The notes: generated from the sequence alone by a model not told the origin. Shown: positions 1-34,102, counted from the stretch's first letter. The stretch: DNA of 34,102 bases from a virus (IMGVR_UViG_2778261316_000008), one strand, 5' to 3'. Numbers and translations are program-made.

Positions 1-330
1 TCAGTAACCAAACAACGCCCATTTTAGTAGTGCATCTGCATCATTCTTCAAACTTCCAAGGTCTTTTCCTGGTGAAATTGTTGCCGCTACACCAAGCGCA
101 TTAAGTCGAAGCTGTGCCTGATGGAATCGACTCTCTTGCTGTAGGCCCAGAATTTCATTTTTATTCGCGACAGCATAACGCTGAATGGCTGACTTCGATA
201 CGCTGTAACCTTTATCGGCTAACCAGAGCGAGAGCCATTCATAACTGGTGAAGTTTGTGCGCGATAATTCGCTATGAAGCTCGGCACGAACATCCTCTGG
301 CAGTTTATCAATATTGCTTGGTCTGGCCAT
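1..330 (-). CDS. DUF3486-like protein (short paralogue of the gp27-like ORF at 12611-13156)
   Basis: ATG at 330 preceded by AGGAGG; N-terminal ~55 aa (MARxSxIxKLPEDVR...GYxxSKSAIxRY) clearly alignable with the 181-aa ORF at 12611; stop codon at bases 1-3. Confidence 0.6.
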   Translation of the reverse strand: MARPSNIDKLPEDVRAELHSELSRTNFTSYEWLSLWLADKGYSVSKSAIQRYAVANKNEILGLQQESRFHQAQLRLNALGVAATISPGKDLGSLKNDADALLKWALFGY

Positions 331-349
331 CTGTCCTCCTATAAATAGC

Positions 350-739
350 TTAGCTATTTTCCACCTTCTCTGAATCAGAGTCACCATCAAACAGTTTGCC
401 CTGCATCCGATCCAATTCTTCTTTTCTGACCCGCTTCACCACGCTGTAAACCCACTGTAGTGAAACACCGAATTTGCGGGCCAGTTCGTGATGGTTGCGT
501 CCGTCAAACTCCAGGAAGATTTCCCGGTCGCGCTGACTGACCTTCCAGACCATGCCCATCGGAAAATAGACGTTTTGCCCACCCCAGACCTGCATCATGC
601 GGTTCGCGACGGCCTGACCAATCTGGTCGGCAACTGCGGGTTCGATATCAATAATCTCGCGGACGGTCTCAGAGGTATGCTGTGCCAGTTCTACCAACAG
701 TTCCGGCCCTTTACTACGAAACTGATTCAGGTCACTCAT
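350..739 (-). CDS. Mor/C-family transcriptional activator (middle/late gene activator)
   Basis: 129-aa ORF from ATG at 739 (MSDLNQ...); C-terminal region (ELARKFGVSLQWVYSVVKRVR) has the HTH pattern of Mor-family activators; position after GemA-like gene as in Mu. Confidence 0.75.
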   Translation of the reverse strand: MSDLNQFRSKGPELLVELAQHTSETVREIIDIEPAVADQIGQAVANRMMQVWGGQNVYFPMGMVWKVSQRDREIFLEFDGRNHHELARKFGVSLQWVYSVVKRVRKEELDRMQGKLFDGDSDSEKVENS

Positions 740-3719: not shown

Positions 3720-4886
3720 TTAAACTCCTTTGACGACGTCGGCGTTGACCTGCGGGACCCCGATTTCAGCAGCCAGATTCATGGCGGCTATCACCAGGTT
3801 ACTGACGGCCAGCGGATACAGCAGGCTGACCATGCTTTTACGGCTACTACCCAGATTGCTCAGACGGGCGCGGATGGCTTCCACTGCGCTGGCGTCCATG
3901 ATGTCGGCCAGCTGCTTACCGGCACGTTGCAGTTTGAACGTCAGAAACTCTTCGAGGCTGTTGTCCAGCGGCAGCAGTTCAACCACCTCGCAGCGCTGGA
4001 CGACCTCACGGACTTCCATGTTGCGTTCGGACAGTTTGTCCGCCAGTTCAGGCTGGCCAATCAGCACGATGGACAGCAGTTTTTTGAAGCCGGACTCCAG
4101 TTCGAAGAAGCGTTTAAGGTGCTTCAGCGTCGGAATGGGAAGGCTGTGGGCCTCCTCAATCACCAGAACGTGGCTGAAACCCGCCTGACTGCTGTCCTTC
4201 AGGACTCGGTGCAACTGGCGGAAGCGGGCGTCCTGGCTGCGCTTGATACTCTCCAGCGGCGCGATGGTGCTGATGATGGCCTCGGCGATAGCTGCCGCCT
4301 TCAGGGTTTTGCCCTTCACGTCGTTGTCTTCCATGGCGATGATGTATGGCTCGATTACAATCACCGGCGCGTTCTCGCGGTTGACGCGTTCAATCAGGTC
4401 GCGGCGCAGCGTGGATTTACCCGCACCGGACTCGCCGATAACCGCCAGAAAGCCACCATGGCGGGCGGTCTGGAACAGCGCCTCACGCACGTAGCGGATA
4501 TCCGGCGTGGTGAACACATCGTCCGCGCCCTGCATGGCTTCATCGGCGAACGGATCACGGAAAAGGCCAAACGCTTTTTTGGTTGCTGGAAATAACACCT
4601 GCTTTTTGAGTAACATGTTCTCTTCCTCACTGAGGTTGGTTTTATCGGTAGTACCCGCTGTACGGGGCGTGACAGCGCCCTGTGCAGCATCAAAACTTTT
4701 CGCTGTATCAATCCCCTTACTTTCCAGATACAACGCCAGACGCTGGCGTACCTCTTCGGGGCTGGTGCGTGGCCACTCGTTATGGTTCACAATCTGGGCC
4801 AGCGTGGCCTCGGAAACGGCGACGGCTCTTGCCACCACCGCCTGCGGGATGCGGGCCTCTTTCAGTTGTTGCTTCAGTACCAGCAT
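3720..4886 (-). CDS. AAA+ transposition ATPase (MuB/TniB/ExeA-like)
   Basis: Walker A GESGAGKST, Walker B-like hhhVIEEAH; N-terminal HTH-like region; directly downstream of DDE transposase; RBS GGAGGAAGG. Confidence 0.8.
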   Translation of the reverse strand: MLVLKQQLKEARIPQAVVARAVAVSEATLAQIVNHNEWPRTSPEEVRQRLALYLESKGIDTAKSFDAAQGAVTPRTAGTTDKTNLSEEENMLLKKQVLFPATKKAFGLFRDPFADEAMQGADDVFTTPDIRYVREALFQTARHGGFLAVIGESGAGKSTLRRDLIERVNRENAPVIVIEPYIIAMEDNDVKGKTLKAAAIAEAIISTIAPLESIKRSQDARFRQLHRVLKDSSQAGFSHVLVIEEAHSLPIPTLKHLKRFFELESGFKKLLSIVLIGQPELADKLSERNMEVREVVQRCEVVELLPLDNSLEEFLTFKLQRAGKQLADIMDASAVEAIRARLSNLGSSRKSMVSLLYPLAVSNLVIAAMNLAAEIGVPQVNADVVKGV

Positions 4887-4896
4887 GCCTTCCTCC

Positions 4897-6666
4897 TCAG
4901 TTACCGTTAACGATGCTGATAACGCTGTTGCGGGCCGGAGTGGTCAGGGTAACCATCACCTCATCCAGCGCGGCTTCAGGTACGCCATCCGGGTACTGCG
5001 CCGTTAACTGGCGGTAATGTTCCGGCGTCCAGATATGGCCGTTAGCGCCAAACTTCTCGCGCAGGGCTTTCGCCGCCTCCACATGGGTCAGCGGACGCTG
5101 CTCAATACGCGGCCCGCGCACGTCTGAAGCCTGACCGCGCTTCGGCATATAGGCCGGAAGCGTGGTGTCGTCGATATGTTTGTACGGGTCAAGTCGCCCG
5201 CCGAACGGCAGCGCCTTCGCCTTGCGTGCAGCAGCTGCATCGGTGGCGTTATCGGTGCCCGTAACCAGCTCTTCGATTTCTTTTGCCGCCGTCTGCGCCG
5301 GGGTCTCCGGCAGGGCTTTGTAGTTTTCGCCAAATACCGCCGCGCTTTCGGCAAAGCCGAACTCGTTCTTTCTGACCTCCTCGACCAGGAAGAACGTCTC
5401 GTGACCGTCCTCACCGGTCAGCACCACCTGCGCCACATCGCTGCGCCACGGGTTACGGGTAATCATCAGTTTTTCGCCGACCAGTACGCCCGGTACCGTC
5501 GAAACGTCAAACTCATTGCCCCGGAACGAGACGCGCAGTTTTGGTGTGACCTTACGGAGTTCCGGTGCGGCCACCGCCAGTTCGCGGCAAACCTCAACGG
5601 ATGGCGCTTTTTTCAGCTGGTCAGCAGTAATCTTCAGCCAGATATCCGTGCGGGTTTTACCGTGGCGGCTGTGGACCGCCGTGGCGTTAAAGTGGCTGCG
5701 CCATTTCACCGCCAGTGCGTTCAGTTCGTCCAGGCTATGAACCGGCTGGAATTTGAGACCCGGCTCCAGTTTACGTTCGATAATGTCACGGGCCTTTTCC
5801 ACCTGCCCGGTGGCGCGGGCGTTATGCGGCTTGTGCGCTATCAGATTGATGCCCAGCGAGCGGCACATGTTTTTCGTCATGCCAGCGGTGTTCGCCGAAC
5901 CGGGATCAAGGTAGAGTATTTTCGGCACGCCGTGCAGCACGTCCGCGCCGCCGCGCTCCTGCATGGCGTTGATAAGCACAGAACAGAGGTTCTCACCAGA
6001 TTCCGCACCCATCACGTACTCAACGTAAATCCAGCCGCTGGTATGGTCGGTAATCTCGTAACTCCACACGCGGTCACTGGCGATGCGGGCGATGTTGGCA
6101 GGCTTGTTCTTGTAGAACTTCGAGCTGTCCATCACCTGCAACCCTTTATGGCCGTTGCTCAGGTAGTAAAGCGTACAAAGTGAGGCATCAATCTCCCAGA
6201 CGTGATTGGGATGCAGGCTGGCCATCTCGGACGACGGGGCCGGTGCGTCAAGCTGTTCCGGGTGCAGACCATAGTTCCGCAGGGCGCGGCTGATGGTGTC
6301 CTCGGACAGCGGGAAAAACTCGCCTGTGGCCTCGTCCGTTCTGCCAGCAGTGATAAAGCCGTTTGACCGCAGGGTCTCCACCGCATCCGCGATGGAATAC
6401 AGGCGCTTACCGTTCTTACGGGTGGCCTCGCGCAGCGTGGCAGATATCAGCGCGGCTTCGTCGCGGCTCAGGGCACTGCGCCCGGCATCGGCGCGTTTTT
6501 TACGTTTGTCAGTCACTGATACCTCCTTCAGCTTGCGCAGCAGGGTGGCGCGGGAAATGCCCAGTTCGGCGCAGGCGGCATCATATATCGCACCACGCTT
6601 ACCATGCCCCGCGTCACGTGCCGCGCGGGCAACATAAACCAGTCGTTCAGTCAGGGCGGCACTCAT
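4897..6666 (-). CDS. DDE transposase (Mu A-like / rve integrase core)
   Basis: 589 aa; N-terminal HTH, integrase-core-like region (HPNHVWEIDAS...LYLDPGSANTA...) and C-terminal Mu-transposase-like region; RBS AGGAGG before ATG at 6666. Confidence 0.85.
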   Translation of the reverse strand: MSAALTERLVYVARAARDAGHGKRGAIYDAACAELGISRATLLRKLKEVSVTDKRKKRADAGRSALSRDEAALISATLREATRKNGKRLYSIADAVETLRSNGFITAGRTDEATGEFFPLSEDTISRALRNYGLHPEQLDAPAPSSEMASLHPNHVWEIDASLCTLYYLSNGHKGLQVMDSSKFYKNKPANIARIASDRVWSYEITDHTSGWIYVEYVMGAESGENLCSVLINAMQERGGADVLHGVPKILYLDPGSANTAGMTKNMCRSLGINLIAHKPHNARATGQVEKARDIIERKLEPGLKFQPVHSLDELNALAVKWRSHFNATAVHSRHGKTRTDIWLKITADQLKKAPSVEVCRELAVAAPELRKVTPKLRVSFRGNEFDVSTVPGVLVGEKLMITRNPWRSDVAQVVLTGEDGHETFFLVEEVRKNEFGFAESAAVFGENYKALPETPAQTAAKEIEELVTGTDNATDAAAARKAKALPFGGRLDPYKHIDDTTLPAYMPKRGQASDVRGPRIEQRPLTHVEAAKALREKFGANGHIWTPEHYRQLTAQYPDGVPEAALDEVMVTLTTPARNSVISIVNGN

Positions 6667-6669
6667 GGG

Positions 6670-7578
6670 TTATGCCTCCTGCCCGTTAATCTCTGGCGTC
6701 GGGTCAGTCAGCCATGAAGGGGCGGCGTTGCCTGTCGGCTCGTCCGGCAGGTCAAATGTGGAGCGCAGGCTACGCGCGGTGCTTTCCAACTGGCAGACCA
6801 GACCGGCCATAAAGTCTCTGGGGGTATCAATCATATTTTCAGCACAGTATGCGCACAGGGTCTCAAAGGCGCTGGACAGTCGAACGGCGATGGCAGATTC
6901 CGCCTCAACCGCTAACGCTGTAACTTCCGCACGCAGCTTCTTCACCTCTTCGTCAGGCTTGGGCGGCTGGATACGGGATTTCTTCTCCAGTTTTGTGGAG
7001 AGCGAGTCGATTTTTTCGTTTTTGTCGGCAAGCACGCGCTGTTGTGCTGCGTTGGTTTCACGCGCTTCGCGTAGGGCCGCTTTCAGTTCGCGGCTTGTCA
7101 TGCGATCAATATCATCGAGGCTCATACCAGCAATCGTGCCGCCATCGGCTAATTCGACGAGGTCTTCGTCATCTTCCGTCATCAACTCAAACAGCTTTGT
7201 TTTACCCAAAAGCGCAAGCGCTTGCGCTTTTGGTTCAAGCTTGGGAGACAAATATTTGAGGGATGCTTGCATCATCACCTGCGCGGTACGTTTGGATAGG
7301 GACAACTGAGACTCAACGATGTCGATGAAGTCACCATGTGGTTCATTTTCTTTGAGAATTACCAGTCGTTTACCCGCCTCCAGCATGGCTTCAGCACTCT
7401 GAGCCATATAAAAACGTGTTTCATGGACAATACGATCACGTTCATACGGCAGGCCATCACCAAACTGCTGCATGATTTCGAGGCGATGTTCGGACATAGC
7501 ATTAAGACTGACACTGAGACCATCGGTCAGCGGTGCATCTTCCACTAGTTCAACTGGTTGTGATTTTGTGCGTCCCAT
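6670..7578 (-). CDS. hypothetical coiled-coil protein
   Basis: 302-aa ORF between the wHTH gene and the transposase; charged/coiled-coil central region; no confident family. Confidence 0.55.
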   Translation of the reverse strand: MGRTKSQPVELVEDAPLTDGLSVSLNAMSEHRLEIMQQFGDGLPYERDRIVHETRFYMAQSAEAMLEAGKRLVILKENEPHGDFIDIVESQLSLSKRTAQVMMQASLKYLSPKLEPKAQALALLGKTKLFELMTEDDEDLVELADGGTIAGMSLDDIDRMTSRELKAALREARETNAAQQRVLADKNEKIDSLSTKLEKKSRIQPPKPDEEVKKLRAEVTALAVEAESAIAVRLSSAFETLCAYCAENMIDTPRDFMAGLVCQLESTARSLRSTFDLPDEPTGNAAPSWLTDPTPEINGQEA

Positions 7579-7587
7579 TTCAACTCC

Positions 7588-7893
7588 TTAGCGACTACCA
7601 GCCATAACACGCTGGTTAATTTCATTGATACGATCCTGCGCCCGCGCCATTTCGGTACTGTGCGCCATGGCGATTTGTAAGAGCTGGACTCCTGGGGCAA
7701 AACGCCCGTTATCCAGTTTCAGGGCCAGTCCTTCTTCGATAAGGGTATTGAGCGCCCGATTGATATTCGCCGGGGACTCGCCCAGAGCTGACGCCAGCTC
7801 GCCGTTAGAAACACCGTTCAGAGCGTGACCGCGTAAAGCCTTAAGGACACGCAAAATACGGGTACCTGAGCTTGATGTATTTGGTTTACTCAT
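7588..7893 (-). CDS. small winged-HTH DNA-binding protein (IclR-N-terminal-like)
   Basis: 101 aa; RILRVLKAL...VSNGELASALGESPANINRALNTLIEEGL resembles the IclR-type HTH. Confidence 0.5.
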   Translation of the reverse strand: MSKPNTSSSGTRILRVLKALRGHALNGVSNGELASALGESPANINRALNTLIEEGLALKLDNGRFAPGVQLLQIAMAHSTEMARAQDRINEINQRVMAGSR

Positions 7894-8114
7894 GACGCCT
7901 CCTTGAGGATGCCGGGGGTAACTTCTTTGCCTATTGCGACCGAAAGGTCTCGCAAAATCCGATAAGTCAAACGACCGCGTGGAAGTTCGCTTTTGCCTGC
8001 CCAGCGGCTGACAGCCTGGGTGACTGTTCGTGGCTCATAGCCCGCGTTAAGCGCGAACTGGCGCAAGCTACTGCCTCTTTCAACCAGCCGTGCCCGAACT
8101 TGTTGTTTGTTCAT
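7890..8114 (-). CDS. Ner-like DNA-binding protein (putative early/lytic regulator)
   Basis: 74 aa from ATG at 8114 (alternative GTG at 8120); LRQFALNAGYEPRTVTQAVSRW resembles Ner/Nlp family; first gene of the leftward arm, divergent from the repressor. Confidence 0.5.
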   Translation of the reverse strand: MNKQQVRARLVERGSSLRQFALNAGYEPRTVTQAVSRWAGKSELPRGRLTYRILRDLSVAIGKEVTPGILKEAS

Positions 8115-8202
8115 ATGCACCGTGTTCCTGTTGGGTTATGATGTACTCTATTGGGTCTATTGTACGCACCCGAACGGGTATGTCAAATTGAGATATGTTC
8201 AA
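8115..8202. promoter_or_regulatory. divergent promoter/operator region between Ner-like gene and repressor
   Basis: 88-bp gap between divergent start codons; two copies of CT(R)TTGGGT(Y)TA at 8129-8140 and 8149-8160 spaced 20 bp apart. Confidence 0.5.
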
Positions 8203-8613
8203 ATGAGTATAAAAGAGAGATTGCGCGAAGCGATGGATGCTAAGAGTCTGACAATTAAGGCATTGTCAGACTTGTCAAAAATTCCATATCGCTCACTTCA
8301 AAACTATCTGCGTGGAGAGAGAGAACCTAATGCAGAGGCTCTTGTTGCGCTAAGCACCCATTTGAACATATCAATAGATTGGCTACTTACTGGTAAAGGG
8401 GAAGCTGTTGGGGTAGAGAAAGCACAGCCAGCTAATCAGGAGCAGCATTTCAACCAGTCTGATCTGAAGTTATTGGAGCTGCTCAACCAACTGGAGCCAG
8501 AGGTGCGAAAAGAGTTGCTGCGAGGCGCTGAGGAAAAACAGCGAATGATTGATATGGAAAAACAGCTTAAGGAGCTGTCCGCAGCGTTCGAAAGATTAAA
8601 AAATACGGGTTAA
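8203..8613 (+). CDS. XRE-family HTH repressor (putative lysogeny repressor)
   Basis: ATG at 8203 (MSIKERLREAMD...); N-terminal Cro/C1-type HTH, C-terminal coiled coil; divergent from Ner-like gene; AT-rich. Confidence 0.7.
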   Translation: MSIKERLREAMDAKSLTIKALSDLSKIPYRSLQNYLRGEREPNAEALVALSTHLNISIDWLLTGKGEAVGVEKAQPANQEQHFNQSDLKLLELLNQLEPEVRKELLRGAEEKQRMIDMEKQLKELSAAFERLKNTG

Positions 8614-8648
8614 TCTGTTCCTATTAAGAACATTAGAGGTATAAGGAC

Positions 8649-9182
8649 ATGACTATGCGCAAATTATTTTTACCGTTGATATTTGTTTTATCTGGGTGTG
8701 GAGATAATACCGATCCTGCTGATACGTCCACCACAGCTAAGGAGCACGCGGTTTTTAGCGTTGAAACAGATAATCCGGTTGTAAATCGCGAATTACCGTT
8801 TATTCGCCAACAACTCCCCGGCCTGGATAAGTACGCGGACAGTTTTGAAAAAGTCGAAGTATCCGAGGATAGCGAACGTCCGGTGACAACGGTGCAGTTT
8901 CATATTAAAGACGAAAATAATATTCCAAGTGACTACATAGCCTCTGGTCATAATTGTTATTTGTTCATATCAAATAATGCCCACGAAGTGAAAATATCTA
9001 AATCAGCATGTCAGGCTGTTTTTTTCGATAAAACGGATGTTCCTGGTGGAGACCTGACCGTGAAACTTGATAAGGAAAAAGTTCCTATGACAGATGATGG
9101 TAAGACCCCGCGAGCAGGTTGTTTGAAAGCTTATTCACCAGAGCCAGATAATGATTATTGGACTTGTCCAAGGCAGGATTAA
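8649..9182 (+). CDS. lipoprotein (moron candidate)
   Basis: Signal peptide MRKLFLPLIFVLSGC with lipobox LSGC, Gly at +2; four further Cys; markedly AT-rich relative to late genes; 36 bp downstream of repressor with no intervening hairpin. Confidence 0.7.
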   Translation: MTMRKLFLPLIFVLSGCGDNTDPADTSTTAKEHAVFSVETDNPVVNRELPFIRQQLPGLDKYADSFEKVEVSEDSERPVTTVQFHIKDENNIPSDYIASGHNCYLFISNNAHEVKISKSACQAVFFDKTDVPGGDLTVKLDKEKVPMTDDGKTPRAGCLKAYSPEPDNDYWTCPRQD

Positions 9183-9189
9183 ATGTTTA

Positions 9190-9212
9190 GGTGGTGCTGC
9201 AGATGCACCACC
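9190..9212. terminator. GC-rich hairpin between convergent lipoprotein and methyltransferase genes
   Basis: GGTGGTGC-TGCAGAT-GCACCACC (8-bp stem, 7-nt loop) followed by ACCTTT; lies between two convergent stop codons. Confidence 0.45.
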
Positions 9213-9229
9213 ACCTTTAACTACCTCTT

Positions 9230-10000
9230 TCAAAAATTACAAATTACCAGCTCTTTCTTCGGGCTGGGTTTGCCTGTTACCTTAAGGTTGTAGCTGATAT
9301 CAACCGACTGCATGTTCAGACCGTTGAATACCTGCCGCATTTCCGGGATATCGTTCACTGATATAATCATCTTCCCTTTGATCCTTCGCGCTAAATCTGC
9401 CATGTGATCATAGTTTTCCAGCCCGAACTCCACACCATAGCCTTCCGTTCCCCAGTACGGTGGGTCACAGTAGAACAGCGTATGCGGGCGATCATATCGC
9501 TCTATGCACTGGTGCCAGTCCAGATGCTCTATCAGCGTTCTCGACAGGCGCAGGTGTGCCATCGACAGTTCTTCCTCAATACGCAGCAAATTGAAGCGCG
9601 GCGCACTGGTTGTAGAGGTACCGAATGTGTGATCGGCGACCTTGCCGCCAAATGCCTGTTTCTGCAGGTAGTAGAACCGGGCCGCCCGCTGAATGTCGGT
9701 GAGCGTTTCTTCCGGCGTATCCTGCAACCATTTGTAAATCTGACGGCTGACCAGCGCCCATTTGAACTGGCGAATAAATTCTTCCAGATGATGCTTGACC
9801 ACCCGATAGAGGTTCACCAGTTCCCCGTTGATATCGTTAATGACTTCGGTCTTGCTGGGAGTCTTTAGGAAATAGAGCGCAGCTGCCCCGCAGAACGGCT
9901 CCACATAGCAGGTATGGGCCGGAAACAATGGTAAAATATGCTTCGCCAGACGACGTTTACCGCCAATCCATGGGACGATGGGTAAAGATTGTTCTTTCAT
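9230..10000 (-). CDS. Dam-like N6-adenine DNA methyltransferase (D12 class)
   Basis: DPPY motif (LFYCDPPYWG), SAM-binding-like EPFCGAAALYF; ATG at 10000 (alternative TTG at 10024). Confidence 0.8.
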   Translation of the reverse strand: MKEQSLPIVPWIGGKRRLAKHILPLFPAHTCYVEPFCGAAALYFLKTPSKTEVINDINGELVNLYRVVKHHLEEFIRQFKWALVSRQIYKWLQDTPEETLTDIQRAARFYYLQKQAFGGKVADHTFGTSTTSAPRFNLLRIEEELSMAHLRLSRTLIEHLDWHQCIERYDRPHTLFYCDPPYWGTEGYGVEFGLENYDHMADLARRIKGKMIISVNDIPEMRQVFNGLNMQSVDISYNLKVTGKPSPKKELVICNF

Positions 10001-10247
10001 TATCCGTAAGCCTTTTGCAATCAATGAAAATATGGCAGGCTAGTCTGGTCTCGCGAGACTGACTGAACCCTGGTCGGCTCACAGTGCATACCTGTGGGTT
10101 GATGACCAGCCTGGTGTTACCGCACCGGGCTGGTCGTTCTTTCAAAGCCATCATGCGGTTCACGTCTGCATCCTCACTATTAACGCTGTTTAAAATCCCT
10201 TTCCCCGACCATTTGTGATGCTGTCTCCACTACACAAGGAGACGCTC

Positions 10248-12307: not shown

Positions 12308-12611
12308 TATCGCCCGCGTGCGCCGGGAATCCCTGCGCTGGAGTCTGCTGGTTGCTCTGAACAAAACCCGCCCGTATACCGCCAGCGAGACGCTGCTGCT
12401 GGATGTATCCCGCGCCATCTACCCGGACACCACGCCGCTGGAGCTGCGCCGTGAGCTGGATTATCTGGCCGACCGCAAGATGGTAGATCTGGAGAAAAAA
12501 CCCTCCGGCGACTGGTTTGCCGACCTGACCCGCCTCGGCGTCGACCTGGTGGAATACACCGTGGAATGCGGCCCCGGCATCGCCCGCCCGGAAAAGTACT
12601 GGAGTGAATAA
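12300..12611 (+). CDS. hypothetical protein (Mu gp26-like position)
   Basis: ATG at 12300 with CAGGAGG RBS; stop overlaps start of next gene (TAATG). Confidence 0.5.
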   Translation: MVDIARVRRESLRWSLLVALNKTRPYTASETLLLDVSRAIYPDTTPLELRRELDYLADRKMVDLEKKPSGDWFADLTRLGVDLVEYTVECGPGIARPEKYWSE

Positions 12612-13156
12612 TGGCCAGACGCAGCACGATAGAAAAGCTGCCGGAAGATGTGCGTCGCTGGCTTGAGCGGGCGCTGACTGAATCCGGCTTCAGCGGGTAT
12701 AACGAGCTGGAGTCCCTGCTGCGTGAGCAGGGTTACGTCATCAGCAAATCGGCTATCCATCGCTATGGACAGAAGATTGAGCGCCGCTATGGCGCTATCC
12801 GTGCGGCTACCGAAGCGGCCCGCATGCTGACCGAGGGAGCTGCTGACGATCAGGATGCGCGTTCGGAGGCGGTGATCGCCCTGATTCAGACCGAGCTGTT
12901 CGAGAGTATTGTCCAGCTGCAGGAAGCGGAAGAAGGCGAAGTCGACCCCAAAGAGCGCGTGGCGCTGCTGTCGAAGGTGGCGAAGAACGTGGCCACGCTG
13001 TCCCGCGCGTCCGTCAACCTCAAGAAGTTCCAGTCCGAAGTCCGGGCCAGAGCGCAGCAGGCAGCCAGCAACGCCGAGAAAATTGCCCGTAAGGGTGGAC
13101 TGTCAACCGATGCGGTGCAGGCACTGCGACGTGAAATTCTGGGGATTGCCACATGA
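12611..13156 (+). CDS. DUF3486 protein (Mu gp27-like, putative small terminase-like subunit)
   Basis: MARRSTIEKLPEDVRRWL... N-terminal domain; immediately upstream of and overlapping large terminase. Confidence 0.7.
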   Translation: MARRSTIEKLPEDVRRWLERALTESGFSGYNELESLLREQGYVISKSAIHRYGQKIERRYGAIRAATEAARMLTEGAADDQDARSEAVIALIQTELFESIVQLQEAEEGEVDPKERVALLSKVAKNVATLSRASVNLKKFQSEVRARAQQAASNAEKIARKGGLSTDAVQALRREILGIAT

Positions 13157-32208: not shown

Positions 32209-32380
32209 TCCGAAAATGTTAACTGAGGTTATTCCTGGATTTCATGACACCACTGATGCAATTGAATTGCCGGATGACAACTGGTTTTTCACAACAACTG
32301 AAATACCTGAAGGGAAAATACTCGCCGCAAATGAACGCGGCGAGCCCGTTCTGATTGATATTACTGTCCCGGAGGAGTAG
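32195..32380 (+). CDS. small ORF downstream of S (possible short or truncated tail fibre assembly protein)
   Basis: 61 aa from ATG 32195 with GGAGGG RBS, 14-nt overlap with S; no clear Tfa C-terminal domain. Confidence 0.35.
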   Translation: MRLFNPKMLTEVIPGFHDTTDAIELPDDNWFFTTTEIPEGKILAANERGEPVLIDITVPEE

Positions 32381-32957
32381 GCCAAATAATAACCGGTGCG
32401 CTGGCGGTGTCAACGCCCTCCAGCGCATCCAGATAATCAAGCCAGGCATTATATTGTTCTTTTTCTGCGTCCTTCAGGCGACCCATTGCTGCTTTACCAG
32501 GCCATTGCTTACCATTCATAAAGTCATTGGCCTGGCTAATCAGCGCCTGTAGTTTTGTTGCCGCCACAGAAATATCATATGCGCGCTGAGCTTCGGGATC
32601 GGCAACCCATTTATTACCATCCCATTTATCAAACTTTGTAGTTGGTGCTTCAAAAGTAAAGCCTTCACGCAACGGTCCAATATATTCGATAGTCACCGGC
32701 TTCCCGTTACTGGTGGTGTATGCTGTTTCTCCACGATGGTCTTCTTTAAGCACCCACTCAGATCCAGAAAAAATAAATACCTTCCCTCCTGCTTCGGCCC
32801 CTGGTTCTATCGCCGTAGAGCATCCGGGCATACTGACACCGATGTTAATAAACTCGTCAGACCATCCCATATATTCAGAAGTCACAGCGTCGTAGTAATA
32901 ACAGCGGATTTCACCCGGTTCTGTTGCCAGTCCGTTTACATCGAAAACAGGTTTCAT
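32361..32957 (-). CDS. tail fibre assembly protein (Tfa/U'-like)
   Basis: 198 aa; EDHRGETAY...GPLREGFT...KWDGNKWVADPEA matches conserved Tfa region. Confidence 0.75.
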   Translation of the reverse strand: MKPVFDVNGLATEPGEIRCYYYDAVTSEYMGWSDEFINIGVSMPGCSTAIEPGAEAGGKVFIFSGSEWVLKEDHRGETAYTTSNGKPVTIEYIGPLREGFTFEAPTTKFDKWDGNKWVADPEAQRAYDISVAATKLQALISQANDFMNGKQWPGKAAMGRLKDAEKEQYNAWLDYLDALEGVDTASAPVIIWPTPPGQ

Positions 32958-33472
32958 TATTTAGCCCTTACAAGAAAGTTGAATGCAATATTTCTTGGGC
33001 GGCTTTCCGTGGATGTTCTGGCAACCCTCGATAAATCAAAATTGAATGTAGAAGTTGATACGGTTCCGCCTGGTGCCGGGGGGGCCAGATTGCCCTGAAC
33101 AACGCTGCGAGAAAATACCCCCAACGCATCTGTATTTACCCCTGTATAAAGATCAACGAGATAACCAGTAACATTCTGAATGGCGTCTCCCTGCGGTGAA
33201 AGCAGGGTTCGCCCATTATCTATCCCACGTCCATCATCCCAGACACGCAGAAACTCTCCTCGCAGATCTGGCAATTTCAGGCCCGGCCAAACAAGGGCCA
33301 ATTTTGGGTAAGTGGTAGGGGAAAATGTTGAGTCGTTAAACTTAAGGAACACCATGTCGGCCCATTCCGGCATCACGGTATTTGGCATGGCAGAAGACGG
33401 CCAAAAAAATGGAACTCCTATCGGTGGTGCACCTGCTCCTAAACCAAGGTTTTTGGAAAAGCAGTTACACAT
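32957..33472 (-). CDS. alternative tail fibre C-terminal segment (S'v)
   Basis: Begins ...FSKNLGLG at the right gix-like site (same KNLGLG as in S); C-terminus ...TESRPRNIAFNFLVRAK matches P2 H / Mu S-type fibre tips. Confidence 0.7.
   Translation of the reverse strand: MCNCFSKNLGLGAGAPPIGVPFFWPSSAMPNTVMPEWADMVFLKFNDSTFSPTTYPKLALVWPGLKLPDLRGEFLRVWDDGRGIDNGRTLLSPQGDAIQNVTGYLVDLYTGVNTDALGVFSRSVVQGNLAPPAPGGTVSTSTFNFDLSRVARTSTESRPRNIAFNFLVRAK
33439..33456. repeat. hix/gix-like recombination site (right inverted repeat)
   Basis: CTAAACCAAGGTTTTTGG; core AAACCAAGGTTTTTG is identical to the core of hixL as I recall it (TTCTTGAAAACCAAGGTTTTTGATAA). Confidence 0.7.
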
Positions 33473-33520
33473 AGAGAAATCTGCAAAAATCCTCCCACTA
33501 TGATGTGAAGGAGGAAATTG

Positions 33521-34102
33521 ATGGCCGTTATTGGTTATATCCGCGTATCAACAATCGACCAGAACAGCGATTTGCAGCGTAATGCACTCACAAGCGCAAA
33601 CTGTGACCGCATTTTTGAAGACCGTATGAGTGGAAAAGTTGCCAGTCGCCCTGGTCTTAAAGGCGCTTTAAAGTGCATTAATAGCGGAGACACCCTGGTA
33701 GTGTGGAAACTGGACAGGCTGGGACGTAGCGTTAAGAACCTGATTGCACTCATATCAGAGTTACATGAACGTGGTGCCCACTTCCGCTCTTTAACAGACA
33801 GTATTGATACCAGCACTGCCATGGGGCGCTTCTTTTTCCATGTAATGTCGGCATTGGCGGAGATGGAGCGCGAGCTAATTGTCGAACGGACACTGGCCGG
33901 GCTGGCAGCAGCCAGAGCACAGGGACGCGTAGGTGGAAGGCCCAACGCATTAAAAACCCATGAGCGAGAGCAGATTGGGCGGCTATTGACGAAGGGGCAC
34001 ACCCGCCAGCAGCTGGCAATTATCTACGGTGTAGGGTTATCGACGCTTTACCGATACTTTCCGGTGGATGGTCATAGGAAGGATAACGCAGCAGGAATGT
34101 AA
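33521..34102 (+). CDS. gin: Gin/Hin/Pin-family serine DNA invertase
   Basis: 193 aa; GYIRVSTIDQN with catalytic Ser, VWKLDRLGRS, C-terminal HTH (GRPNALKTHEREQIGRLL...LSTLYRY); GGAGGA RBS; stop is the last codon of the window. Confidence 0.9.
   Translation: MAVIGYIRVSTIDQNSDLQRNALTSANCDRIFEDRMSGKVASRPGLKGALKCINSGDTLVVWKLDRLGRSVKNLIALISELHERGAHFRSLTDSIDTSTAMGRFFFHVMSALAEMERELIVERTLAGLAAARAQGRVGGRPNALKTHEREQIGRLLTKGHTRQQLAIIYGVGLSTLYRYFPVDGHRKDNAAGM

What the first reader, a model, noticed from the sequence alone, without database searches (positions are those of the whole stretch)
8649..9182. Low-GC lipoprotein moron apparently co-transcribed with the repressor
A 177-aa lipoprotein (lipobox LSGC, Gly at +2 suggesting outer-membrane sorting, four Cys in the mature part) starts 36 bp after the repressor stop with no intervening hairpin, and is followed by a GC-rich hairpin. 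By eye both the repressor and this gene are much more AT-rich (roughly 40-45% G+C) than the late genes (roughly 55-60%), consistent with separate acquisition. A repressor-linked envelope protein is a classic position for a superinfection-exclusion or receptor-masking factor expressed in the lysogen. I could not assign it to a known family.
Basis: partly seen in the sequence, partly recalled or inferred. Interest (0 to 1): 0.6.

Follow-up and report, generated by a model that had tools for sequence, protein, structure and literature searches.

The report
Repressor-linked lipoprotein of Mu-like prophage
The gene is a real, selectively maintained lipoprotein gene sitting just after the repressor of a Mu-like (BcepMu-type) prophage; it belongs to an undescribed periplasmic protein family that fills this slot in about half of related phages, and it most likely protects the lysogen from further phage infection, though that is untested.

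Summary
ORF 8649-9182 (+) encodes a 177-aa protein (more likely 175 aa from ATG 8655) with a conserved lipobox LSG|C17 and four further Cys. It starts 35 nt after the repressor stop, with no stable hairpin or promoter between them, and ends at a strong hairpin (9189-9217). GC is 41.6%, against 56-63% for late genes.

The element is a BcepMu-like transposable prophage, 100% identical to an E. coli Ecol_542 prophage over the tested 1.2 kb. The protein has no Pfam, NCBIfam or PADLOC match and no fold match in PDB or BFVD. Its core domain (residues ~36-146) matches only the C-terminal part of PHROG 10002 (unknown function). It defines a family of at least 187 clusters at 50% identity.

In every Mu-like locus examined the family gene lies downstream of the repressor. 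Of 71 unbiased BcepMu-like loci, 33 carry it, as a short lipoprotein, a long lipoprotein or a fusion to a transmembrane protein.

It is under purifying selection (dN/dS about 0.15). Its mature domain occurs as anciently diverged alleles swapped into near-identical backbones. Low GC is a property of this genome arm in all 13 loci tested, not evidence of recent acquisition.

Superinfection exclusion is the best-supported function. One relative is fused to the Ltp exclusion domain. The function remains inferred.

The parts
8114..8142 (+). Weak candidate promoter for the repressor operon: TATGCA, 17-nt spacer, TATGAT
   Evidence: It is one of two overlapping 8/12 hexamer pairs (8114 and 8116) that share the -10 TATGAT and are the only + strand sigma-70-like sites between 7950 and 8660. 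Inferred, not shown.
8159..8186 (-). Strong early promoter (TTGACA, 16-nt spacer, TACAAT) driving the Ner-like/transposase operon, back to back with the repressor promoter
   Evidence: 11/12 match. It sets the divergent switch geometry.
8203..8613 (+). Prophage repressor, 136 aa, HTH_3 / Phage_CI_repr
   Evidence: Pfam HTH_3 E=5.8e-11 and Phage_CI_repr E=8.3e-6. PHROG transcriptional repressor families match. PGAP annotates it as an HTH protein.
8616..8632 (+). Conserved palindrome TGTTCCTATTAAGAACA in the repressor-lipoprotein spacer
   Evidence: The core GTTC-N7-GAAC is conserved in 6 of 7 aligned loci, including a diverged one. It is unique in the window. A copy also precedes the NA37 cargo gene in L006. 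Function unknown.
8649..9182 (+). Lipoprotein gene (177-aa ORF; probable start ATG 8655, 175 aa)
   Evidence: dN/dS is 0.15.
8649..8699 (+). Signal peptide with lipobox LSG|C; the Cys17 codon is 8697-8699
   Evidence: Cys17 is invariant and the lipobox is conserved in 22 homologues.
8700..8753 (+). Flexible tether (residues 18-35)
   Evidence: AlphaFold pLDDT is below 50 for residues 1-32. The DNA stays 83-92% conserved up to about 8720, where the allele breakpoint lies.
8754..9086 (+). Core alpha/beta domain (residues ~36-146), the family-defining part, with Cys103 and Cys121
   Evidence: pLDDT is 90-96. phrog_10002 matches residues 27-134 at E=5e-14. 187 representative clusters match. G58, C103 and C121 are invariant.
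9087..9179 (+). C-terminal Cys158...Cys172 beta-hairpin tail (LP.T.D.KPPR.GCL...W.CP)
   Evidence: It is conserved in long forms and absent in 143-147-aa forms. pLDDT is 80-88.
9189..9217 (.). GC-rich stem-loop shared by the convergent lipoprotein and dam genes; probable end of the repressor-lipoprotein transcript
   Evidence: Stem-loops of unrelated sequence sit at the same place in L003, L006, L010 and L042, and a near-identical one in L048.
9230..10000 (-). Dam-type DNA adenine methylase, convergent; one of several alternative cargoes in this slot
   Evidence: Pfam MethyltransfD12 E=1.2e-27. Alternative cargoes appear.

Best explanation
The gene is the second cistron of the lysogeny (repressor) operon of a BcepMu-like transposable prophage.

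Proposed mechanism:
- Its product is exported and lipid-modified at Cys17.
- It hangs in the periplasm on a disordered tether of about 18 residues.
- It folds into a disulfide-stabilised alpha/beta domain of an undescribed family, followed by a C-terminal Cys-clamped hairpin.
- It is made in the lysogen together with the repressor.
- It most likely acts as an envelope-level superinfection-exclusion factor. It would bind a component that an incoming phage exposes in the periplasm, such as the tape measure, the tail tip or a cell-wall-piercing activity, and so block genome entry. Masking a surface receptor is less likely.

Shown here: the gene, the lipobox, the family, its fixed slot after the repressor, purifying selection, swapping of old alleles, and the stem-loop boundary.

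Inferred: co-transcription, expression in the lysogen, membrane location, and the anti-phage function and its target.
For: - Gene anatomy and lipobox conservation.
- No promoter or terminator between repressor and gene, and a stem-loop after it here and in most relatives checked.
- The same position, downstream of the repressor directly or after one gene, in Morganella, Yersinia, E. fergusonii, Serratia/Klebsiella, Photorhabdus, Pseudocitrobacter and Pseudomonas-type Mu-like phages. This holds even at 24-30% protein identity.
- Facultative presence, 33 of 71 unbiased BcepMu-like loci, as expected of an accessory protective gene and not of a core function.
- dN/dS of 0.15, so the protein is functional.
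- The mature domain is the most divergent segment of the region. It is 43-48% identical where flanking genes are 83-96% identical. A breakpoint lies just after the signal peptide and dS is saturated, so old specificity alleles are exchanged between backbones, independently of the repressor DNA-binding domain.
- The domain occurs fused to two Ltp domains (PF07553; PHROGs annotated as superinfection exclusion) in a protein next to the regulatory switch of an integrated element. It also shares with Ltp proteins the zinc-ribbon plus transmembrane anchoring architecture.
- Ltp is a prophage-expressed lipoprotein of the lysogeny module that blocks DNA injection (PMC3952083).
- Relatives with Asp+2 or a transmembrane anchor point to a periplasm-side target and not an outer-membrane one.
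Against: - There is no experimental or homology link to any characterised exclusion protein. Pfam, NCBIfam and PADLOC give nothing.
- The Ltp fusion is rare (2 clusters), and Ltp domains are combined with many partners.
- Distant family members exist outside recognisable phage contexts (L033).
- Expression in the lysogen is inferred from layout only.
- The repressor promoter candidate is weak.
- Allele swapping is also compatible with adaptation to host envelope differences.
Confidence: 0.45

Rival explanations
1. Lysogenic-conversion lipoprotein that benefits the host for reasons unrelated to phages, in the manner of lambda Bor or plasmid TraT. Examples would be serum or antimicrobial resistance, envelope robustness or adhesion.
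For: It is a prophage-borne, accessory, envelope-located protein probably expressed in the lysogen. Carriers include clinical, bovine and food isolates. Distant relatives exist in non-phage contexts.
Against: There is no similarity to Bor, TraT or any virulence family. The family is tied to the repressor arm of one phage type across hosts with very different lifestyles: Photorhabdus, Pseudomonas-type and environmental metagenomes. Ancient allele swapping and the fusion to Ltp fit a phage-directed role better.
Confidence: 0.2
2. Llp/Cor-type receptor blocker. An outer-membrane lipoprotein binds the periplasmic face of the outer-membrane protein used as receptor and allosterically closes its surface loops.
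For: Gly at +2 predicts Lol-dependent export to the outer membrane under the Asp+2 rule (PMC11005994). Llp works exactly this way on FhuA and also carries an internal disulfide (PMC9586334).
Against: Family members at the same slot carry Asp+2 (L069, L076, L077, P0025) or are anchored by an inner-membrane helix after a cytoplasmic domain. The protein is 2-3 times larger than Llp or Cor and unrelated in sequence. From general knowledge, contractile-tailed Mu-like phages usually use LPS and not a TonB-dependent transporter; this was not tested here.
Confidence: 0.12
3. A component of the phage's own control circuitry. It could be a periplasmic sensor working with the neighbouring or fused 'GDVG' transmembrane protein to modulate lysogeny. 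Alternatively it could be a periplasmic restraint on the phage's membrane-tethered SLT endolysin.
For: In many relatives the domain is fused to, or adjacent to, a cytoplasmic domain plus transmembrane helix (phrog_5825 / phrog_10002). That is a trans-membrane signalling architecture. The slot borders the holin-SLT lysis cassette and in some phages adjoins it directly.
Against: More than half of closely related phages lack any family member (38 of 71; PhiKM), so it is not needed for lysogeny or lysis. This window has no GDVG partner. The lipoprotein allele does not track the SLT: L010 has a 99% identical SLT but a 52% identical lipoprotein. A convergent dam gene and a stem-loop separate it from the lysis genes here.
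Confidence: 0.12
4. A recently and separately acquired foreign low-GC moron with its own expression signals and no integrated role.
For: GC is 41.6% against about 58% for the backbone. A stem-loop follows the gene. The gene is absent from some relatives.
Against: The GC depression is shared with the repressor and recurs in 13 of 13 loci from different hosts. The gene sits at a fixed slot across deep divergence. No promoter of its own was found. Strong purifying selection acts on it.
Confidence: 0.05

Closest known systems
Ltp of Streptococcus thermophilus phage TP-J34 (Pfam PF07553, Lipoprotein_Ltp)
   Same: Both are lipoproteins encoded in the lysogeny module of a temperate phage and tethered outside the cytoplasmic membrane. 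[quoted passage not shown] The domain studied here is fused to two Ltp domains in P0048 and P0199. It also uses the same alternative anchors: a lipobox, or a zinc ribbon plus transmembrane helix.
   Different: The window protein shows no sequence similarity to PF07553. It has a different predicted fold, alpha/beta with disulfides. It comes from a Gram-negative transposable phage. Its function is untested.
Llp (T5) and Cor (T1, phi80, N15) exclusion lipoproteins
   Same: All are small phage lipoproteins with an internal disulfide that act from the periplasmic side to stop infection (PMC9586334).
   Different: Llp and Cor are about 60-80 residues and target FhuA. They are linked to the receptor-binding protein gene or are early genes, not to the repressor. 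No homology was detected. Family members studied here can be inner-membrane anchored.
Repressor-linked exclusion genes such as lambda rexAB and P22 sieA
   Same: The logic is the same: protective genes expressed in the lysogen alongside the immunity repressor. P22 SieA is a prophage-expressed membrane protein that excludes superinfecting phages (PMC10883804).
   Different: Those are cytoplasmic or integral inner-membrane proteins, not lipoproteins, and there is no sequence relationship. The rexAB comparison rests on general knowledge.
PHROG phrog_10002 (unknown function)
   Same: Residues 27-134 match profile positions 215-321 of 328 at E=5e-14. Full-length members (324-328 aa) occupy the same slot in related phages.
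   Different: phrog_10002 proteins have an N-terminal cytoplasmic 'GDVG'/Flk-like region and a transmembrane helix in place of a lipobox. The window protein corresponds to their periplasmic domain only, plus an extra C-terminal Cys hairpin.

Membership tests
Bacterial lipoprotein (signal peptidase II substrate) | Positively charged n-region, hydrophobic h-region, lipobox [LVI][ASTVI][GAS]C within about the first 25 residues | tested here: met
   The sequence is M-T-M-R-K, LFLPLIFV, L-S-G-C17. Cys17 is invariant and the lipobox is kept in 22 homologues. About half of 81 wider family members also have one.
Bacterial lipoprotein (signal peptidase II substrate) | Actual lipid modification and cleavage (globomycin sensitivity, palmitate labelling) | not testable with these tools
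   This needs an experiment.
Outer-membrane lipoprotein (Lol substrate) | No Asp at +2 (Lol avoidance signal) | tested here: inconclusive
   The window protein has Gly+2 and Asp+3, and Asp+2 is the retention signal (PMC11005994). From memory, Gly+2 has been reported to retain a model lipoprotein in the inner membrane. Relatives have Asp+2 or a transmembrane anchor.
Ltp family (PF07553) | Match to the Lipoprotein_Ltp repeat domain | tested here: not met
   The window protein has no Pfam hit at E<=0.1. Only the fused relatives P0048 and P0199 carry PF07553.
Cor / Llp exclusion lipoproteins | Lipoprotein of about 60-80 aa homologous to Cor or Llp, with a FhuA-using phage | tested here: not met
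   The protein is 175-177 aa. PHROG and Pfam scans give no such family. Receptor use was not testable.
PHROG phrog_10002 | Full-length match to the 328-position profile (cytoplasmic N-domain, transmembrane helix, periplasmic domain) | tested here: not met
   Only profile positions 215-321 match. This is domain-level kinship, not full membership.
Moron (Hendrix/Juhala sense) | Variable presence among related phages | tested here: met
   33 of 71 related loci have a family member. PhiKM has none.
Moron (Hendrix/Juhala sense) | Own promoter and own terminator flanking the gene | tested here: inconclusive
   A stem-loop lies downstream. No promoter-like site lies upstream within 8143-8660. The layout looks like an operon with the repressor.
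Known anti-phage defence systems (PADLOC-DB 2.0) | Match to any defence protein model | tested here: not met
   No hits for the lipoprotein.
BcepMu-like transposable phage (Bcepmuvirus-type genome) | MuA-like DDE transposase, MuB/ExeA-like ATPase, Mor, Mu Gp27 and portal, with the early operon divergent from the repressor and the late genes following the repressor arm | tested here: met
   PGAP annotation of the identical E. coli prophage, inserted in an aldolase gene. Pfam Mor, Gp27, SLT and holin hits. Relative PhiKM is classified as Bcepmuvirus.

The most novel reading that the evidence does not exclude
The domain is a new periplasmic fold that defines a widespread, previously unrecognised exclusion module of transposable (BcepMu-type) phages. 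It is deployed in three anchoring formats: a lipoprotein, a long lipoprotein, and a fusion to a cytoplasmic 'GDVG' domain through a membrane helix. Its ancient, exchangeable alleles would set exclusion specificity independently of repressor immunity specificity. That would amount to a second, envelope-level immunity type system in these phages.
Probability: 0.25. Interest if true: 0.65.

Novelty: new variant of a known kind. Interest (0 to 1): 0.42.

Why it matters
Repressor-linked envelope proteins are a known way for prophages to protect their hosts. The characterised Gram-negative examples are few (Cor, Llp, SieA, Imm/Sp, gp15) and none comes from transposable phages.

This family has at least 187 clusters at 50% identity, no Pfam model, no structural analogue and a fixed genomic address. 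It is a well-defined and cheap target: one gene on a plasmid plus a phage panel would settle whether it is an exclusion factor.

The allele system offers a natural experiment for mapping its target. It may also matter for phage therapy, because the carrying prophages occur in clinical E. coli, Klebsiella, Salmonella, Serratia and Morganella.

Tried and rejected
- **Family searches on the lipoprotein.** Pfam, NCBIfam and PADLOC gave no hits.
- **Profile search against PDB sequences.** Only a chance hit at E=0.38.
- **Literature.** Nothing on this protein, its RefSeq accession, or lipoproteins of BcepMu-like phages.
- **tblastn against isolated phage genomes.** The family was found only in Phi06_2974 B and KP12.
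- **The search for related loci with the 81-sequence alignment.** It failed because no stretch was conserved enough. I replaced it with degenerate DNA patterns.
- **Positive selection as the cause of divergence.** Rejected: dN/dS is 0.14-0.15 (0.54 on only 12 substitutions), and dS is saturated between allele types.
- **Lysis-cassette membership.** Rejected: the gene is facultative, it is separated from the cassette by a stem-loop and a convergent dam gene, and it does not co-vary with the SLT.
- **The spacer palindrome as a repeated operator.** It is unique in the window.
- **Co-variation of allele type with tail or tape-measure genes.** Not attempted, because the flanks available were too short.

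Full report
**1. What is in the sequence**

The window is a Mu-like transposable prophage of the BcepMu type. The tested stretch 8100-9300 is 100% identical to a prophage in the E. coli Ecol_542 chromosome, where the element interrupts an aldolase gene. Stretch 7500-10100 is 99.9% identical to 'Escherichia phage Phi06_2974 B' and 98.5% identical to Klebsiella phage KP12.

The layout is as follows:
- The early operon runs leftward: Ner-like 7890-8120, IclR-type HTH 7588-7893, DUF3102 6670-7578, MuA-like transposase 4897-6666, MuB/ExeA-like 3720-4886, and on to Mor.
- A 136-aa HTH_3/CI-type repressor runs rightward at 8203-8613.
- The target ORF follows at 8649-9182.
- A Dam methylase lies convergent at 9230-10000.
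- Then come holin, membrane-tethered SLT transglycosylase, and the late genes.

**2. Check of the observation**

- *ORF and start.* The ORF is 177 aa from ATG 8649. PGAP uses the ATG at 8655 (175 aa). The TAAGGA at 8641-8646 is better spaced for that start.
- *Lipobox.* The lipobox is LSG|C17 with Gly+2. It is conserved in 22 homologues, and Cys17 is invariant.
- *Cysteines.* Four more Cys lie in the mature part. Cys103 and Cys121 are invariant across 81 family members. Cys158 and Cys172 belong to a C-terminal tail that shorter relatives lack.
- *Spacer.* The 35-nt spacer after the repressor stop does not fold better than shuffles (z +0.45). No sigma-70-like site of at least 8/12 lies on the + strand between 8143 and 8660.
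- *Candidate promoters.* The only + strand candidate is a weak one at 8114-8142, upstream of the repressor. It sits back to back with a strong early promoter at 8186-8159 on the other strand.
- *Downstream hairpin.* The hairpin at 9189-9217 is real: -19 to -21 kcal/mol, z -3.6 to -3.9. It lacks a clean T-run and is shared with the convergent dam gene.
- *Hairpins in relatives.* GC-rich stem-loops of different sequence follow the gene in Morganella, Serratia, Yersinia and Pseudocitrobacter loci, and a near-identical one in a second E. coli locus (L048). This supports a transcript boundary there.
- *Composition.* GC is 44.5% for the repressor and 41.6% (GC3 34.8%) for the lipoprotein. Late genes are 56-63% (GC3 60-72%).

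**3. The gene is functional and belongs to an undescribed family**

The protein matches nothing in Pfam, NCBIfam or PADLOC. Its only library match is to the C-terminal third of phrog_10002, of unknown function (E=5e-14).

Close homologues are all annotated as hypothetical. They occur in E. coli, Salmonella, Citrobacter, Klebsiella, Yersinia, Morganella and Serratia.

A profile search of 1.84 billion representative proteins found 187 clusters at E<=1e-3. They share residues ~40-140, with the signature CPGLDKY ... IP..Y.A.GH.C ... K..C.S.CLD. About half carry a lipobox. Others have an N-terminal membrane helix or longer N-terminal regions.

dN/dS against an allele that is 91% identical is 0.15, so the protein is under purifying selection.

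**4. Genomic address**

In four look-ups of diverged homologues, the gene lies 36-41 bp after the 136-aa repressor of a BcepMu-like prophage.

A degenerate DNA pattern for CPGLDKYA retrieved 15 viral contigs and 19 genome contigs. Of these, 14 and 7 respectively hold true family members. All but one member-bearing locus (L033, a betaproteobacterial MAG, in a non-phage context) and two fragmentary viral contigs whose neighbouring genes gave no recognisable context (L015, L024) are Mu-like immunity regions, from Photorhabdus, Pseudocitrobacter, Serratia and Pseudomonas.

A second pattern for the distant 'WPK' subfamily gave six more viral contigs. Where the genes could be read, the layout was the same: repressor, zero or one gene, family gene, lysis genes.

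For an unbiased frequency I collected 80 viral loci through the neighbouring DUF3102 protein. Of the 71 with enough upstream DNA, 33 carry a family member in the repressor-to-holin interval. Across all 80 loci the members take three formats:
- short lipoproteins of 146-178 aa (17 genes);
- long lipoproteins of 312-320 aa with an insert before the C-terminal hairpin (8 genes);
- proteins of 327-328 aa in which a cytoplasmic 'GDVG' domain and a membrane helix replace the lipobox (11 genes).

Phage PhiKM, a Bcepmuvirus, has an unannotated 118-aa repressor and no family gene.

The gene is therefore a frequent but facultative module at a fixed slot.

**5. Composition and evolution**

The low GC is not peculiar to this phage. 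In 13 of 13 loci, with locus GC from 43% to 63%, the family gene is 6-17 points below its surroundings. The repressor is lower in all 13, though only marginally in L019. The AT-richness is a property of the immunity arm and not a mark of recent acquisition here.

Against Morganella and Yersinia prophages whose flanking genes are 83-96% identical, the lipoprotein is only 43-48% identical.

The breakpoint lies at about nt 8720, just after the signal peptide. Between these alleles dS is saturated while the repressor dS is 0.29-0.43. These are old alleles moved by recombination, not products of rapid positive selection.

In the Serratia-type locus the repressor DNA-binding half and the lipoprotein mature domain are both replaced, while the junction between them stays 82-92% identical. 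The two modules therefore assort independently.

That junction contains a conserved palindrome, TGTTC-N7-GAACA (8616-8632). A copy of the junction, including the palindrome, also precedes the NA37 cargo gene in the Yersinia locus.

**6. Function**

Nothing links the protein by homology to a characterised function. The circumstantial case for superinfection exclusion rests on four points:
- It is placed in the lysogeny operon, as for Ltp of TP-J34 (PMC3952083).
- It is exposed in the periplasm on a flexible tether.
- It is facultative, and its alleles are exchangeable.
- Two clusters fuse the domain to tandem Ltp exclusion domains. One of these sits beside the HTH switch of an integrated element that carries a Prim-Pol primase.

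The family also shares with Ltp proteins the alternative anchoring by a zinc ribbon plus membrane helix.

Relatives at the same slot carry Asp+2 or an inner-membrane helix. The common denominator is therefore exposure to the periplasm, not outer-membrane residence. This favours a target met in the periplasm, such as the tape measure, the tail tip or a cell-wall-piercing activity. An Llp-style grip on an outer-membrane receptor (PMC9586334) is less likely.

Rival readings remain open:
- A host-benefit conversion factor.
- A role in the phage's own signalling or lysis control, suggested by the fusions to the GDVG/Flk-like transmembrane protein and by proximity to the lysis cassette.

The facultative distribution, and the lack of co-variation with the SLT, argue against a core phage function.

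**7. Verdict**

Separate acquisition inferred from GC content is not supported, and outer-membrane sorting is uncertain.

The object is a new, uncharacterised family filling a known functional niche. It is moderately interesting and directly testable.

Noticed in passing
window 8616-8632: The palindrome TGTTCCTATTAAGAACA lies in the repressor-lipoprotein spacer. Its core is conserved in 6 of 7 loci, even where the flanks diverge. In Yersinia locus L006, a copy with a remnant of the repressor 3' end also precedes the NA37 cargo gene. It could be a regulatory site or a recombination joint for cassette exchange.
   Followed up: partly
window 8192-8208 and 8356-8372; 8245-8272: A 17-nt inverted repeat (94% complementary) pairs the repressor ribosome-binding site and ATG with a segment 150 nt inside the gene. 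A perfect 11-bp hairpin with a 6-nt loop lies inside the repressor coding sequence. Either could be autoregulatory.
   Followed up: no
window 9183-10247 and the same slot in L006-L008, L013, L014, L017, L025, L042, L047-L049: The interval between the lipoprotein and the holin is a cargo hot-spot. Alternatives seen are: dam alone; an NA37 nucleoid-associated protein plus a 402-aa multi-helix membrane protein; a DUF2441 protein; 145-aa or 242-aa proteins. None matches PADLOC. The NA37 pair could be an undescribed defence system.
   Followed up: partly
L018 3055-3645, L027 786-1265, L016 3853-4827 (related loci): Proteins starting MSQDFHGDVGQ..GDINN (phrog_5825; weak similarity to the flagellar regulator Flk) end in a membrane helix. 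They sit between the repressor and the family lipoprotein, or are fused to its domain (phrog_10002). Repressors of L018 and L016 end with a similar HG.VGQ..GN motif.
   Followed up: partly
L047 3975-4331 (phage PhiKM, PQ738613): An unannotated 118-aa HTH ORF occupies the repressor position. This Bcepmuvirus lacks the lipoprotein altogether.
   Followed up: yes
window 32361-34102: A serine recombinase (Resolvase plus HTH_7, 33518-34102, running off the window) lies next to oppositely oriented tail-fibre assembly genes (32361-33472, - strand). This resembles the Gin/G-segment invertible host-range switch of Mu.
   Followed up: no
window 1-390 (-): A second, diverged Gp27-family ORF, 52% identical over 52 residues to the terminase-associated Gp27 at 12611-13156, lies beyond Mor at the left end. 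It is present in some E. coli copies of the prophage and absent in others, including Ecol_542.
   Followed up: partly
E. coli JCH8249 record NZ_CP132021.1 (40,540 bp): The phage left end matches a 40.5-kb stand-alone replicon record and not a chromosome. This could be an extrachromosomal or separately assembled copy of the phage.
   Followed up: no
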